Shown one piece after another: positions 25,995 to 58,054 of a stretch of DNA of 64,000 bases. How positions within the stretch are numbered: position 1 is the first letter of the stretch; each line of letters starts with the position of its first letter. This DNA comes from Octopus vulgaris (Eukaryota). Made by a program: the position numbers and the translations under genes. The stretch lies in contig OX597830.1 in the NCBI GenBank assembly GCA_951406725.2, positions 48,360,001-48,424,000 of the forward strand, in the 5' to 3' direction. Below the pieces are notes generated by a model. The model had not been told where the DNA came from. It made no database searches and was given only the letters and a program-made list of their open reading frames with translations.

Positions 25995-26160
25995 GAAGAT
26001 GTCCTTTAGATTTTATTGACAAAGCTAGTATACCTTCGAGTACCTTTGATAGCTTGAGTTACTTTACTGACATCAGTTACACGAAATGTCTGCTTCGAAG
26101 ATCATAGAACTGCTGAATTGCGTTTTTACAAGGATTGGACTTACACCGAAATAAACAGAG
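25995..26160 (+). pseudogene. PAN2 exon paralog with a ~71-nt frameshifting deletion
   Basis: Same splice sites as 57824-58054 (ttcttacag|GAAGATGTCC...AACAGAG|gtaagg). Reads RCPLDFIDKASIPSSTFDSLSYFTDISYTKCLL, then a deletion removing three core Cys, then DHRTAELRFYKDWTYTEINR in another frame. Length 166 nt; TAG in the entry frame. Confidence 0.8.
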
Positions 26161-26349
26161 GTAAGGGCGTCATTTTCTTGTTTTTATTTATTTATTTTGT
26201 TGGAATTATACACAGTCAGTTGGACAAGACTAAGGCACCACCTTCAAAAATGTGTTAGTCTGTTATATTGAGGCCAGGATTTTGATTTACTTGGCTCTAT
26301 CATTGGTTAAGTCCAACGTCATATAAAGGTACGGACTCAATACCAAATT

Positions 26350-26800
26350 AGATAGATAGATAGATAGATAGATAGATAGATAGATAGATAGATAGATAGA
26401 TAGATAGACAGACAGACAGACAGACAGACAGACAGACAGATAGACAGTTAGATAGCTAGGTAGATAGATAGGCTGACTGACAGACAGATTGACAGAGAGA
26501 CAGACAGACAGACAGATAGATACATAGATAGATAGATAGATAGATAGATAGATAGATAGATAGATAGATAGATAGATAGATAGATAGATACATACATACA
26601 TACATACATACATACATAGATAAACAGATGCATGGACACATACATACATGCATGCATACATGCATGCATACATACTTGCATACATACATACATTCACGGA
26701 TGCATGCATGCATACATACGTAGATACATACATACATACTTGCATTCATACATATATAGATGCATGCATGCATACATACATAATACATGTACATGCACAC
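26350..26800. repeat. (GATA)n/(GACA)n/(CATA)n compound microsatellite
   Basis: Direct reading. Confidence 0.95.
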
Positions 26801-26899
26801 ACTCATGCGTACAGTTAACTACTAAATACTCGATGAACAAGAGGGATAAAGATAGCCCCAAACCTCCATGCTGTGATGAAAAATGTCGGCTCTGTGGAA

Positions 26900-53364: not shown

Positions 53365-56300
53365 CAGTAGCATATTTTTATATCGTGCTTTCACTTCACT
53401 ACCGAGCGCAGCTCTGTGTGCCTTGGGTATGTGCTGTGATATGTTGTGATACACTGATGGTTATTGTATGGAAAGTGTTCTGCGTAGGATGTGTGAAGTG
53501 CCTAGTAGTGCAATTTTCTGTATGTTATATGTGTTTGTAAGTCCTGTTTTTTCTTGTTATGTATTTGTCTGAATATTTTTTATCATGCCTAATGCACCTA
53601 TTATGATAGGAATTGTTTCTGTTTTTAGATTCCACATTCTGGTTACCTCTATTTCCAGGTATTTTGAAAGTTTCTCCATTTCTTTTAGAAACACGTTGTC
53701 ATCCGCTGGTATTGATACATCAATTAGAAAACATTTTTTTTCTTCATGATCTATGACAAATATATCTGGTCTGTTGGCCTTAATTTCTCTATCTGTGTGT
53801 ATTGGCATATCCCAGAGTATGGTTGCTTTCTCGTTTTCTGTGACCTTTTCTGGTGTGTGCCTATACCATCTTTTTCTGTTGTTATTCCATAATGTTGGCA
53901 TATTTTCCAGTGTATATAGGTCCCAACTCTGTCGTGTCTGTGAATATATTCCTTCTTAGCCAGGACTGGGCAGCCAGAGATAATATGATTTATTGTTTCT
54001 TGTCCATCTCCACATATTCTGCAGTTACTTGTTATATTTCTTTTTCATTACATGTTTTTGGTAATTTCTGGTGGGGAGGCTTTGGTCTTGTGCTGCAATT
54101 AAAAATCCTTCTGTCTCTGCTTTGAGTCCTGAGCTTCTCAACCATTGTTGGAATTTTTCTTTGTCTATTTCTTTTGCATTTAGTTCAGTCCAGTATTTGC
54201 CATGAAGGGGCTTTTCTTGCCATCGTTTTATCATGGTTCGATGCTGTTCTCTTTTTAGTTTGGATTTCATTTGTTTTATAGCTTTTGTTGTTTCTTTATC
54301 TTCTTCTTCTTCTTCTTCATATTTGTTAGGTGGTACGATTTCTTGTTTGTATTTGTCAGCTTCGTTAAATACAGAGAACAGTTTTTTGTTTTGCTGCTAT
54401 TCGTATCAGTTTTCCTTCCTTCTGAAGCAGATATTTTTGCAGTCCTATGGTGGTTATTTTATAGTAGTTTTCCAGTTGTATAAGGCCTCTACCACCATCT
54501 ATACGTTGTATATATAGCCTTTCTATGTCAGATTTTGGGTAATGCATCCTAGATCCTGACATTAATTTTCTTGTTTTCCTATCTATTTTGGTCAGTTCAT
54601 TTGTCCAGTTAAGGATATTGTAGCTGTAACTTATAACTGGGACGGCTAAAGTGTTGATTCCTATTATCTTGTTTTTAGCATTGAGCTCTGTTTTTAGTAT
54701 TGATCTAACTCGTCTATAATATTCTTTTTTATTTTCTCTTTCATTTGTGTGTGTTGTGTCTTATCTAGTTCATGGATTCCTAAGTATTTGTAAGTTTGTC
54801 TTTGGTCTAATTCTTTTATTTCATTGGTTTTATCTAGCGTGATGTTGCTACTCTTAATTAATTTTCCTCTTTTCAGGGTTACTTTGGCGCATTTCTCTAA
54901 TCCAAATTTCATTTCTATTTCTTTGGTAAATCCATGAAATGTCTTTAGTAGTGTTTCCAGCTGTTTGTCATTTGTGCGTATAGTTTTAGGTCATCCATAT
55001 ATAAAAGGTGGCTGATCGTTTTGCCGTAACATTTATATCCGCATCCAGTTCTGTTTAGCATATACGATGGAGGTGACAGTGCCAAGCAGAAAAGGAGTGG
55101 AGAGAGCGTATCTTCCTGGAATATTCCTCTTCTAATTGGGATGGCTTTGGTTTTCACAAGTCCCTCTTTTGTTTGGAGCTGTAGCACTGTTTGCCATTTA
55201 TTCATAGATTGTCCTATGTACTTTATAATTGTTGGTGCAACTTTGTTCATAGCTAGTGTTTCGAGAATCCATGTGTAGGGGATGCTATCAAAGGCCTTTT
55301 TGTAGTCGATCCAGGCCATACTGAGGCCTTTCTTCTTTCTGTGGCTGTCTTCATTTATGGCTTTATTGATCATTAGTTGATCTTTACAGCCATATGAGCC
55401 TTTGCAGCATCCTTTCTGCTCTTCTGGAAACAGGTTGTTTTCGTCCAGGTGCTTGTTCAATCATTGCGATATTACTGCAGTAAATGCTTTGTACATTGTA
55501 GGGAGACAGGTTATAGGTCTGTAGTTTTCTGGTTTTGCTGTCTCATTTGATTTGGGAATTAAGATGGTTTTCCCCTTCGTGAGCCATTCAGGCATTGTCT
55601 CTGGCTCTGCCAGTATGTTGTTAAAATTTTCAGCCAGCTTTTTGTGCGTTCCTGTTAGATATTTCAACAAGAAGTTGGGGATCTTGTCATGCCCAGGTGC
55701 CTTCCAGTTGCTTAGTCTTTGCAGTGCCTGGGTGACCTCTTCAGTTGTTATGGGGGTCCAAAGTTGCTCAGATGCTGAGTTTGTTGTTTTAATACTCCTT
55801 TTTTTTTGGTTGTTCGTTCGCCGACCATATTTCTCACCAGAATTCTTCCACTTCTTCTGCCGTTGGTGCTGCAGTGATTTCTATTTTATTTTTGCCAAGT
55901 TCTTGGTAGAACTTTTTGGGGTTGGAGTTGAACTGTTTGTTTTGTTCAAAGAAACGTTGGCGTTTCTCATACCGGAGGATCCTTTGTGCTTTGGCAAGGA
56001 TATCTTGCTTTAGCTTCTCTTTTATCTCAGGTAAATCTTTTTCTGTGGTGTTGTATTTGTGGAGTATTTTTGTTTTCTTTTTGTTGCTCAGTAGCGTTGA
56101 TTGTCTACTGATTTCATTAAGAATCGACAGATCTTTTCTAATTTTTGGTATTTTGTTTTGGATGTTGTTTATCCACAGGGTTTGTTTGGGTGGTGGTGCT
56201 CCTGTTTGGATGGGTTTGAGTGAGTATCCAGCTTCTTTTGTGGCTGCAGTGGCTGCTGCGTATATTAAGTCATTTAGCTTAGTGATATCGCTTTTTGTTT

Positions 56301-57270
56301 CAGTGGCTATTAGTTCCGTGACGGCTAGGTTTATGTTGTTTATAATTGATGTTGTTGCTTTGTCTATTTTCATTTTCGGGAGGTATGGTCGGTGGTCCAT
56401 TTTAAGCTCTGTGGTTTTCAGTTCTTTGATTATTTTACTTTTTATATTATCATAATCTTTAGGCTCCCCTTCGTTGTTTCCAGGTTTTAGATTTGTGTCG
56501 CTTTCTATCTTATCCGTATGTTTGTTTGTCGTGTTTTGGCTTGCTGTTTGTCGTGTATTATTATGTATCCTTACGGTCTGGGTTTGTTGTTTTTTATTTA
56601 CATCGTTTTTGTTGGAAATGATACGTTTGTCTTCGTGTTTTACTGTTTCAGTGTATATATTATTTGGCATTGTTGTGTGGCTTCTATCTACATTTTCCTG
56701 GTGTATTTTTTCTTTTAAATGTTCTATTTCTATTTCTGATATTTTTTTGGCGCTGAGAATATACCTCCGTATATTTGCTAGTTTATTAGGGTTCATTGTT
56801 GTATCCAGGTCTTTATTTATGTTATTTTTCTTCCATATTTTGTATGTATGTGTTGTTGTATTTTCATTCTTTGGGTAGAGCACTGCTGTAAAGTAAGCGT
56901 GTAGGATAGAAATGTATTCCTTACGTATCCATTTATGTCTTTTGGGTTTTATTTGCGGGACATGAGGAACAACGTCCGGCCCATTATTTTGACGGTCGTC
57001 ATTTTCGTAGGGTACCGGTCCGTTCATTTCTTTTGTCACGTTGTTTTGCACGTGTAGTTTTTCATACATTTTATGTTGTTAGTTTACAGTACGTACTTCC
57101 CGATTGTTATTCTTGGGTTGAAAAATACCGGTATTATTTAATTTATTCGTAGTGTTTTTGTACATGGTGTTTGGGGCCGGAGATGATCTGGTGTTGATGG
57201 ATCGTAATATATCACGCATGTTTACATGTGTTGTGTTAGAGGTGGAGATAATATCGAGTTAAAATACATC
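53365..57270 (-). mobile_element. Near full-length R4/Dong-type LINE, frameshifted
   Basis: N-terminal ORF 55834-57069, RT pieces 55461-55670, 54945-55460 and 54694-54912, CCHC/RLE 53557-54270, and a (TAA)n tail. Confidence 0.94.
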
Positions 57271-57823
57271 ATTTCGTTTTGAAAATAGTAATAAATTTCA
57301 ATGAGTATTACTTACTCGGATATAGTCCAATCCTTTGTCAGTTATTTTTTAGCTCCATGCGATGTCTTTGTTTCCGATGTTTGTGGATAGATTTCGGAGC
57401 ACTGTTTTATCGTTCTCATATGTTTAACGTCCCCGGTGTAATCTTACGTCCCCGGTGTAATCTCTTATCATTATTATTATTATTATTATTATTATTATTA
57501 TTATTATTATTATCATCATCATCATCATCATCATCATCATCATCATCATCATCACCATCATCATCATCATCATCATCACCACCATCATCATCATCATCAT
57601 CATCATCATCATCATCATCATCATTATTATTATTATTATTATCCTCTCTTTTAGCACCACAATATTATCATAATATTGATGTCTATTAAAGAGTAGAAAA
57701 ATTATCTATTAATTATTTCTCATTATTCAAAAATAATAAAACCATTCACCGGAAATAGTCCCACCACCATTACGAAACTCTACAAAAGACAACATTGATT
57801 TATTTATTTTCTTCTTCTTACAG

Positions 57824-58054
57824 GAAGATGTCCTTTTGATTTGATTTACAGAACTGGTCTACTTAATAACTTTGATTTGGGTGCCATTTTTGCCTTCAAT
57901 TACACGCAGTGTCTGCTTGTTTGCGAAACAATACCAAATTGCCAATCGTTTGACTATAAATTTAATTCCAAATCGTGCCAGTTGTCAACTAAAGATCATA
58001 CAACTGTTGAGTTGTATCTTGACACGAATTGCTCCTACACCAAAATAAACAGAG
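57824..58054 (+). CDS. PAN/Apple module exon 2
   Basis: ttcttacag|GAAGATGT...AACAGAG|gtaagg; 231 nt, phase 1-1. Encodes RCPFDLIYRTGLLNNFDLGAIFAFNYTQCLLVCETIPNCQSFDYKFNSKSCQLSTKDHTTVELYLDTNCSYTKINR. Confidence 0.85.

What the first reader, a model, noticed from the sequence alone, without database searches (positions are those of the whole stretch)
25995..58054. PAN2 exon paralogs diverge almost only at amino-acid-changing sites while the introns stay ~94% identical
Hand alignment of 25995-26160 against 57824-58054 gives about 34 substitutions in ~155 aligned nt (~22%) plus two single-codon indels. Only one change is cleanly synonymous (GAA/GAG); two more third-position changes sit in doubly changed codons. 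Protein identity is ~45%, with RCP, FD, YT.CLL, DH.T.EL and YT.INR retained. The ~190 nt of intron right after the donor differ at only ~12 positions. Exon divergence far above intron divergence with nearly all changes nonsynonymous is the pattern known from conotoxins, snake toxins, gamete-recognition proteins and immune receptors. Inference: a hypervariable PAN-module family in an arms race (venom/saliva, self or gamete recognition, or immunity). This is the best candidate for an undescribed system in the window.
Basis: partly seen in the sequence, partly recalled or inferred. Interest (0 to 1): 0.88.

Follow-up and report, generated by a model that had tools for sequence, protein, structure and literature searches.

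The report
Fast-evolving octopus secreted PAN protein family
This octopus carries at least 25 clustered copies of a gene for a predicted secreted three-module protein whose middle module has changed its amino acids about twice as fast as the neighbouring introns, likely building a repertoire of binding proteins that would recognise microbes or prey.

Summary
Observation confirmed, with one omission. The exons differ at 36 of 160 bases (3 synonymous, 31 non-synonymous steps), against 27 of 369 in flanking introns. Copy 25995 is a pseudogene fragment: 71-nt frameshifting deletion, truncated next exon, no 5' exons.

Copy 57824 is exon 4 of an intact six-exon gene (signal peptide, PAN1, PAN2, Cys linker, PAN3); contigs of two RNA-like runs join its exons. 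The genome holds 25 three-PAN gene sets in four clusters, plus an older cluster; full-length relatives were found only in octopods.

Codon models support positive selection in PAN2 (2ΔlnL 104, ω≈3.7 at 23% of sites) and PAN1 (56), not PAN3 (1.5). The signal survives double-hit mutations, gene-conversion simulations (maximum 22.8) and cross-clade validation. Exon dS equals intron divergence (0.60 vs 0.59); dN is 1.37, so the family ratio is about 2, not the pair's 4.

Sister-species orthologs are nearly identical, which favours a paralog repertoire over species-specific gamete recognition. The ligand and tissue are unknown; soluble recognition protein is the best guess, salivary or venom binder second. 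No description turned up in 10 literature searches.

The parts
36047..36077 (+). Gene B exon 1 coding part (ATG, first 10 residues of the predicted signal peptide)
   Evidence: homologous to the N-terminus of O. sinensis P0001; GT donor, phase 1
49490..49525 (+). Gene B exon 2, rest of the predicted signal peptide; nearly invariant among paralogs
   Evidence: 36-nt exon found in 23 of 25 PAN1 loci
50083..50340 (+). Gene B exon 3, PAN1 module; positive selection at a few loop and strand-edge sites
   Evidence: Pfam PAN_1 E 5.6e-5; M2a vs M1a 2dlnL 56
57824..58054 (+). Gene B exon 4, PAN2 module, the hypervariable exon of the finding
   Evidence: Pfam PAN_1 E 9.6e-8; 26 paralogous exons; 2dlnL 104; joined to exon 5 in contigs of X1 and X2
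62884..62979 (+). Gene B exon 5, conserved helical linker with a Cys that likely pairs with the first Cys of PAN2
   Evidence: tblastn with P0001; frame; Cys conserved in all 9 linker-bearing rows of alignment A2; disulfide inferred, not shown
63472..63668 (+). Gene B exon 6 coding part, PAN3 module and stop; no positive selection
   Evidence: Pfam PAN_1 E 2.5e-5; 2dlnL 1.5; GT..AG joint 62979-63472 in contigs of X1 and X7
25995..26160 (+). Copy A PAN2 exon: 71-nt deletion, frameshift and premature stop; pseudogene fragment
30372..30422 (+). Copy A exon 5 remnant (first half only)
31166..31383 (+). Copy A PAN3 exon, open, with an altered C-terminus
5144..5239 (+). Exon 5 of the upstream paralog (its PAN1 and PAN2 lie just before the window)
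5746..5942 (+). Exon 6 (PAN3) of the upstream paralog
57643..57823 (+). Intron flank before PAN2 of B, 91% identical to 25813-25994 of A; neutral yardstick
58055..58243 (+). Intron flank after PAN2 of B, 94% identical to 26161-26348 of A; neutral yardstick

Best explanation
This is an octopus family of at least 25 clustered genes for a predicted secreted three-PAN protein whose middle PAN module has evolved under positive selection, likely giving each copy its own binding specificity in what would be a soluble recognition repertoire, most likely against microbes or parasites. Shown: the gene structure, copy number, spliced contigs for gene B, dN above both dS and intron divergence in PAN2 (and PAN1), none in PAN3, and different trees for the three PAN exons. 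Inferred mechanism: duplication makes a new copy; selection retools residues on the beta-sheet face of PAN2 opposite its helix and on nearby loops; conversion or exon exchange reshuffles PAN1/PAN2/PAN3 combinations; signal peptide, linker and PAN3 stay as a constant scaffold; failed copies such as A decay (birth and death). With no enzyme or membrane anchor, the protein would act by binding, for example agglutinating, coating or blocking its target. Confidence splits as about 0.9 for real diversifying selection among paralogs, 0.75 for a binding repertoire, and 0.4 for the immune or mucosal role named here.
For: Selection, own implementation of the codon site models, 25 genes: PAN2 M2a vs M1a 2dlnL 104.4, M8 vs M8a 96.2, omega 3.6-3.7 on 23-25% of sites; PAN1 56.3 and 55.8; PAN3 1.5 and 1.5 (internal negative control). 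With MG94 and double-nucleotide changes: 88.6, 51.6, 0.5. Each third of PAN2 on its own tree is significant (17, 41, 44), as are the 12-gene young clade (36) and 11 outer genes (52). Neutral simulations with gene conversion reached at most 22.8 in 27 runs. Fast sites defined in one clade give pN/pS 2.57 and 2.32 in disjoint pairs of the other clade (p about 3e-4; site rates correlate, rho 0.57). Young clade plus A: intron tree length 0.59, exon dS 0.60, dN 1.37. Fold: AF2 pLDDT 74, three PAN units; VIA Z 13.2 to the HGF N domain, 9.3 to the SML-2 lectin, 8.6 to MIC4-A5. Selected sites alternate along predicted strands (50/52 around Cys51; 62/64/66) and spare the helix (mean omega: helix 0.87, strand 1.57). 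Columns 45 and 52 align to Asn and Tyr of the MIC4-A5 hairpin, recalled as part of its galactose pocket. Exon trees are mutually rejected. Spliced contigs identical to gene B occur in two studies.
Against: No tissue, induction or binding data: sample labels are coded, and the runs are only guessed to be RNA. The immune role rests on analogy with recalled families, not on a test. Recombination is present (PHI p<=0.002 in PAN1; 0.0005-0.0045 in the PAN2 young clade) and inflates the test: 8 of 27 neutral simulations passed the nominal threshold. The tree-free count over 10 disjoint pairs and all sites is marginal for PAN2 (pN/pS 1.28, p=0.049) and not significant for PAN1 (1.09, p=0.33). Clustering on one surface is inferred from strand alternation; no coordinates were available. 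The Lys of the apicomplexan lectins (column 54) is Ser in at least 90% of rows. Outer-clade orthologs barely differ between sister species, so for those genes the race is not visibly running now.
Confidence: 0.42

Rival explanations
1. Salivary or venom accessory proteins: secreted PAN-only binders that attach to prey proteins (matrix, clotting or receptor targets) and diversify with diet or prey resistance.
For: Constant signal exons with a hypervariable mature exon, as recalled for conotoxins. The PAN fold is used in leech saliva: VIA Z 8.1 to LAPP and 6.0 to saratin; LAPP is described as a collagen binder in passages of PMC7191736. Full-length relatives found only in octopods.
Against: No cysteine-rich toxin or enzyme domain (Pfam gives only PAN-like families). 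The octopod venom-genome paper PMC7656900 never mentions PAN in its main text. Similarity to LAPP is fold-level only (15% identity).
Confidence: 0.25
2. Reproductive proteins (spermatophore, seminal fluid, egg coat or oviducal gland) diversifying through sperm competition or gamete recognition.
For: Secreted, fast-evolving and lineage-restricted, a pattern recalled for such proteins.
Against: Divergence lies between paralogs, not species: 9 O. sinensis orthologs differ at 0,1,0,0,3,7,3,5,0 PAN2 residues, about 2.8%, similar to PAN3 (about 2.3%). None of these nine belongs to the 12-gene young clade, which was not tested across species.
Confidence: 0.12
3. Skin, sucker or mucus proteins for self-recognition, chemical sensing or adhesion, where variation gives an individual or substrate code.
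For: PAN/apple modules are adhesins in several fold matches (MIC4, AMA1, SML-2); shuffled modules could give a combinatorial code.
Against: No membrane anchor. A self-recognition code predicts allelic hypervariability, whereas orthologs are conserved across species.
Confidence: 0.11
4. No adaptive story: relaxed constraint on a redundant exon, plus conversion that homogenises introns and recombination that inflates the tests.
For: Recombination detected; false positives in 8 of 27 neutral simulations; the PAN1 region of the young clade coalesces about 3 times more recently than PAN2 and PAN3 (dS 0.19 vs 0.63 and 0.61); one compared copy is a pseudogene; whole-exon M0 omega is only 1.23.
Against: Observed 104 against a simulated maximum of 22.8. 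The same sites are fast in two independent clades and exceed the synonymous rate there without a tree. Exon dS matches intron divergence, so introns are not more homogenised than silent sites. Cysteines and core residues are kept and 26 of 26 listed PAN2 exons are open. PAN3, in the same genes, shows no signal.
Confidence: 0.1

Closest known systems
PAN/apple domain superfamily (Pfam PF00024; HGF N domain, plasminogen, factor XI and prekallikrein apple domains)
   Same: Three PAN modules by Pfam and fold (VIA Z 13.2, rmsd 2.2, 81 aligned to the HGF N domain; Foldseek E 1e-7 to factor XI and kallikrein apples).
   Different: No protease or kringle domain; a 25-copy family with one module under positive selection. 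Whole-model TM-scores are low (about 0.25), so only single modules match.
Apicomplexan apple-domain lectins (Sarcocystis SML-2, Toxoplasma MIC4)
   Same: Best sequence matches in the PDB (E 6e-7 and 1e-5); secreted PAN-only architecture; selected columns 45 and 52 lie on the hairpin recalled as their sugar pocket.
   Different: Their column-54 Lys is Ser here. MIC4 K469M loses binding (passages of PMC6608980); equating K469 with column 54 rests on recalled numbering. The pocket is variable here, not conserved.
Leech salivary PAN-fold proteins LAPP and saratin
   Same: Secreted PAN-fold binders in a lophotrochozoan (VIA Z 8.1 and 6.0; passages of PMC7191736).
   Different: Single domain, 11-15% identity; that paper reports saratin as single-copy.
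Diversified invertebrate recognition families (snail FREPs, bivalve C1qDC, sea-urchin SpTransformer) and conotoxin superfamilies; all recalled, none compared here
   Same: Clustered duplicates, birth and death, conversion mosaics, constant signal or scaffold with a positively selected binding part.
   Different: A different scaffold (PAN). No evidence here of somatic diversification, immune induction or toxicity.
Public gene models such as LOC118761179 and LOC118766705 (O. sinensis), LOC106868906 (O. bimaculoides), GAB1605676 (Argonauta hians)
   Same: Members of this family.
   Different: Labelled only uncharacterized, hypothetical or 'Apple domain-containing'; six of these ids gave no paper. 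'PAN domain' appears as a row label in the Fig. 1 heat maps of PMC7656900 (supplement file 1); the values could not be seen.

Membership tests
PAN/apple domain superfamily | Match to PF00024 above the curated cut-off | tested here: met
   PAN2 32.2, PAN1 23.3, PAN3 24.5 bits against cut-off 21.4
PAN/apple domain superfamily | Antiparallel sheet plus one helix, four core cysteines | tested here: met
   AF2 model; VIA Z up to 13.2; C33, C39, C51 invariant and C29 nearly so in 23 PAN2 rows
Apple subtype with a third disulfide | First and last Cys bonded around the module | tested here: inconclusive
   First Cys of PAN2 invariant and linker Cys conserved; the bond was not observed and that part of the model has low pLDDT
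Factor XI / prekallikrein / plasminogen-type proteases | C-terminal trypsin domain | tested here: not met
   ORF stops after PAN3; Pfam on three full-length relatives shows no protease
MIC4/SML-2 galactose-binding apple lectins | Lys after the last core Cys (C-x-x-K) | tested here: not met
   Ser in at least 90% of 23 rows where SML-2 and MIC4 A1/A2 have Lys; the link to K469 is recalled
MIC4/SML-2 galactose-binding apple lectins | Glycan binding | not testable with these tools
   needs a glycan array
Positively selected birth-and-death multigene family | A class of sites with dN/dS above 1 | tested here: met
Positively selected birth-and-death multigene family | Clustered paralogs with pseudogenes and mosaic history | tested here: met
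Cephalopod venom protein | Posterior salivary gland expression, presence in saliva, activity on prey | not testable with these tools
   run tissues are coded
Soluble pattern-recognition protein | Haemocyte or barrier-tissue expression, induction by infection, microbe binding | not testable with these tools
   no tissue or binding data available
Gamete-recognition protein | Rapid divergence of orthologs between sister species | tested here: inconclusive
   9 outer-clade orthologs are 91-100% identical in PAN2, which argues against it; the young clade was not covered
Secreted protein | N-terminal signal peptide, no membrane anchor | tested here: inconclusive
   hydrophobic N-terminal helix on two conserved exons; read by eye, no signal-peptide predictor was available

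The most novel reading that the evidence does not exclude
Octopods have built a germ-line, antibody-like repertoire on the PAN scaffold: 25 to about 37 secreted proteins with a constant frame (signal, linker, PAN3), a paratope-like face on PAN2 rich in Asn, Tyr, Ser and His, and module shuffling between genes, used to recognise pathogens or prey molecules. It would be a dedicated diversified recognition system of cephalopods, for which my searches found no description.
Probability: 0.3. Interest if true: 0.8.

Novelty: new variant of a known kind. Interest (0 to 1): 0.6.

Why it matters
Cephalopods lack antibodies, and many of their secreted proteins are unannotated. This gives a defined, octopod-restricted family with a mapped set of 13 selected residues in PAN2, a built-in constant control (PAN3) and natural variants ready to express. 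That makes 'what do octopuses use to recognise foreign targets, or to bind prey proteins' directly testable with one tissue atlas query and one binding screen. It would also add PAN/apple to the small scaffolds that nature has turned into variable binders. The evolutionary pattern itself is a familiar one.

Tried and rejected
Single-sequence AF2 of P0001 failed (pLDDT 34). A first alignment stacked PAN1 and PAN3 exons on PAN2 and was discarded. A frame check used wrong exon 1-2 coordinates and was redone.

Expression: no RNA holder listed on record, and contig depth cannot rank tissues, so no tissue inference is drawn. The tool lists one extra A at the exon 5/6 joint in X1 and X7, while the X2 contig of a paralog shows none; unresolved, and public gene models are in frame there.

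Copy A as an alternative 3' cassette of the upstream gene: rejected because A's PAN2 and exon 5 are both broken. Exon hypermutation: rejected, dS equals intron divergence. Old conversion tract: rejected for A vs B, and the flank tree is not rejected by exon data (p-AU 0.18), though the exon tree is rejected by flank data (p-AU 0.002). A 'four closest pairs' count (p=0.014) was chosen after seeing the data; the five-pair count is 8 synonymous and 48 non-synonymous steps, p=0.035.

Literature: octopus+PAN domain+expansion, octopus+apple domain (26), octopus+apple domain-containing (50), six gene ids (54), PAN apple+mollusc+lectin+diversif (56) and octopus+genome+PF00024 (83) gave 0 papers. Cephalopod+PAN domain gave 1 biomineralization paper (29, listing only). 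One search listed 25 of 428 papers, none holding the PAN term. One search gave 2 papers with passing mentions. Word searches of the supplements of PMC7693380, PMC12607849, PMC10138644 and PMC10142993 found nothing; they may use other identifiers, so this is no evidence on tissue. The O. bimaculoides genome paper and the MIC4-A5 structure paper were not held; subscription journals and figure values could not be seen. Two look-ups of earlier scan findings returned nothing. M7, branch-site models and a complex prediction were not run.
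Full report
1. Observation. Window 25995-26160 (copy A) and 57824-58054 (copy B) are AG/GT-bounded exons in a 35% GC animal window rich in microsatellites and retroelement debris. They differ at 36 of 160 aligned bases, against 16 of 181 in the upstream and 11 of 188 in the downstream intron (Fisher p=3e-6). 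Over 50 comparable codons there are 3 synonymous and 31 non-synonymous steps and 22 identical residues; dS 0.08-0.09 matches the introns, dN is 0.33-0.36. A's next exon is cut at about 30422, and no exon 1-3 lies between A and the previous complete gene. A is a pseudogene fragment.

2. The gene. B is exon 4 of a six-exon gene, with every intron in phase 1 and no internal stop: exons 1-2 predicted signal peptide (36047-36077, 49490-49525), exon 3 PAN1 (50083-50340), exon 4 PAN2, exon 5 linker (62884-62979), exon 6 PAN3 (63472-63668). Each PAN exon passes the PF00024 cut-off. The structure was guided by a 280-aa O. sinensis model, P0001. Contigs of runs X1 and X2 (two studies, guessed to be RNA) join the end of B's exon 4 to exon 5 with no mismatch in the laid parts, and X1 and X7 skip intron 5 at GT..AG. 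An extra A listed at that joint is unexplained.

3. The family. Searches of the own genome G000 gave 26 PAN2 exons (38-100% identity), 30 PAN3 exons and 28 PAN1 exons, 25 close and 3 distant, all on contig C17. By position and strand they form 25 PAN1-PAN2-PAN3 sets at 44.8-44.9, 47.9-48.4, 57.0-57.2 and 68.7 Mb. Left out of the 25: copy A, one unpaired PAN2 (L019), five PAN3 (A's own, two duplicates, two orphans) and the three distant PAN1. Exon 2 was found at 23 of 25 PAN1 loci and exon 5 within 1.5 kb of 20 of 30 PAN3 loci; all six exons were checked only for B. An older cluster at 26.37-26.70 Mb holds about 12 more PAN2-type exons. A word-free search of 1.84 billion representatives gave 61 hits; of the 20 proteins looked up by name, those matching the three-PAN architecture are Octopus or Argonauta, apart from one unnamed fragment. 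A profile search gave 16 of 16 Octopus. The genome is an Octopus very close to O. sinensis, probably O. vulgaris (inference from 91-100% exon identity).

4. Selection. I wrote the codon site models myself (F3X4, one tree per exon, branch lengths re-optimised, naive empirical Bayes posteriors); they are not codeml. For 25 genes: PAN2 M2a vs M1a 2dlnL 104.4 and M8 vs M8a 96.2, with omega 3.6-3.7 on 23-25% of sites and 13 of 76 sites above 0.95; PAN1 56.3 and 55.8, omega about 4.3 on 17-18%, 9 of 85 sites; PAN3 1.5 and 1.5, not significant. Allowing double-nucleotide changes under MG94 gives 88.6, 51.6 and 0.5.

5. Controls. Recombination is present: PHI p<=0.002 in PAN1, 0.0005-0.0045 in the 12-gene young clade of PAN2, not significant over all 25 PAN2 or in PAN3. 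Each third of PAN2 on its own tree stays significant (17.3, 40.6, 43.8), as do the young clade (36.2) and 11 outer genes (52.0). In 27 neutral simulations with conversion tracts, 8 passed the nominal 5.99 but the maximum was 22.8. Without a tree and with paths chosen to maximise synonymous steps, 10 disjoint pairs give pN/pS 1.28 (p=0.049) for PAN2, 1.09 (p=0.33) for PAN1 and 0.69 for PAN3. Fast sites taken from one clade and counted in disjoint pairs of the other give 2.57 and 2.32 (p about 3e-4 each). For the young clade plus A, the flanking-intron tree length is 0.59 per site, exon dS 0.60 and dN 1.37; one flank row with a non-homologous tail inflates the intron figure, which is conservative. 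So silent sites and introns agree and only replacements are in excess; neither hypermutation nor an old conversion tract explains this.

6. Mosaic history. The three exon trees reject one another by 143-742 log units; each tree was fitted to its own data, which favours rejection. Two genes in the 48-Mb cluster carry an outer-type PAN2 behind a cluster-type PAN1. In the young clade PAN1 has dS 0.19 against 0.63 and 0.61 for PAN2 and PAN3. I infer exchange of modules between genes.

7. Where the changes sit. AF2 on a 26-row alignment gave pLDDT 74 and pTM 0.61, with three PAN units and a helical linker. VIA matched single modules to the HGF N domain (Z 13.2), SML-2 (9.3), MIC4-A5 (8.6) and leech LAPP (8.1). 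Selected PAN2 sites are 14, 15, 20, 32, 45, 48, 50, 52, 61, 62, 64, 66, 69: 7 in strands, 5 in loops, 1 in the helix. Sites 50 and 52 flank the Cys that, in the known PAN pattern, bonds to the helix, and 62, 64, 66 alternate, so I infer they line the sheet face opposite the helix; no coordinates were available to measure this. Columns 45 and 52 align to Asn and Tyr of MIC4-A5, recalled as galactose contacts, but the lectins' Lys at column 54 is Ser here. Asn, Tyr, Ser and Val dominate the selected sites, which AT-rich mutation could partly cause.

8. Between species. Nine O. sinensis models match single paralogs in all or most exons and differ at 0, 1, 0, 0, 3, 7, 3, 5 and 0 PAN2 residues, about the same rate as PAN3. 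An O. bimaculoides model is 83%, 74% and 90% identical to its best match in PAN1, PAN2 and PAN3. No O. sinensis model matched the 12-gene young clade in PAN2. Diversification is therefore mainly among paralogs, followed by conservation, which fits a repertoire better than species-specific gamete recognition.

9. Mechanism and rivals. Best reading: a secreted binding repertoire with a constant frame and a variable PAN2 (plus PAN1) surface, renewed by duplication, selection, module exchange and loss, most likely in defence (0.42). Rivals: salivary or venom binder (0.25), reproductive protein (0.12), skin or self-recognition (0.11), no adaptation (0.10). Selection and gene anatomy are shown; secretion is predicted; ligand, tissue and role are inferred from analogy.

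10. What is known. It belongs to the PAN/apple superfamily and fails the defining features tested for factor XI-type proteases and MIC4-type galactose lectins. Public models are uncharacterized. Ten full-text searches found no description of the family. What I saw of papers: passages of PMC7191736, PMC3269628, PMC6608980 and PMC13252362; passages and one supplement part of PMC7656900, whose Fig. 1 heat maps carry a 'PAN domain' row, so a PAN count difference has been tabulated; supplement word searches only for PMC7693380, PMC12607849, PMC10138644 and PMC10142993. FREPs, C1qDC, SpTransformer and conotoxin patterns are recalled. Subscription papers and unseen supplements may mention these genes.

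11. Verdict. Real, statistically robust and apparently undescribed as a family; the evolutionary pattern is a known kind carried on an unusual scaffold. New variant of a known kind, interest 0.6.

Noticed in passing
window 42623-45094 (-): 823-aa stop-free frame of a non-LTR retrotransposon (RVT_1 E 2e-28, zf-RVT) inside intron 1 of gene B, with many decayed relatives in the window next to (TTA)n arrays; resembles recalled microsatellite-targeting R4/Dong-type elements.
   Followed up: partly
G000:C17:26.37-26.70 Mb: Older sister cluster with about 12 PAN2-type exons and the same exon plan, about 25-35% identical to the young family; not tested for selection.
   Followed up: partly
L037/L049 and L053/L039: Two genes have a tandem duplicate of exons 5-6, which could give alternative last exons.
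   Followed up: no
L019, L041, L052: An unpaired PAN2 at 68.68 Mb with a PAN3 on the opposite strand 14 kb away, and an orphan PAN3 at 79.2 Mb; inversion, fragment or assembly effect.
   Followed up: no
window 62979/63472: The read-laying tool lists one extra A at the exon 5/6 joint in contigs of X1 and X7 but not in the X2 contig of a paralog; if real it would shift PAN3 out of frame; more likely bookkeeping in an A run.
   Followed up: partly
L008, L009 (PAN2 of two neighbouring paralogs): Their PAN2 has net charge +10 and +7, while the other 23 range from -7 to +2; a possible switch to a polyanionic ligand.
   Followed up: no
P0007, P0008, P0017, P0023: Octopus proteins of 667-2643 aa with many PAN-like repeats related to PAN1-PAN2; possible source of the family.
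   Followed up: no
window 19633-20107 / 20198-20689: Near-perfect local duplication and inverted repeat (120 nt at 100% direct, 374 nt at 99.5% inverted), a recent rearrangement upstream of copy A.
   Followed up: no
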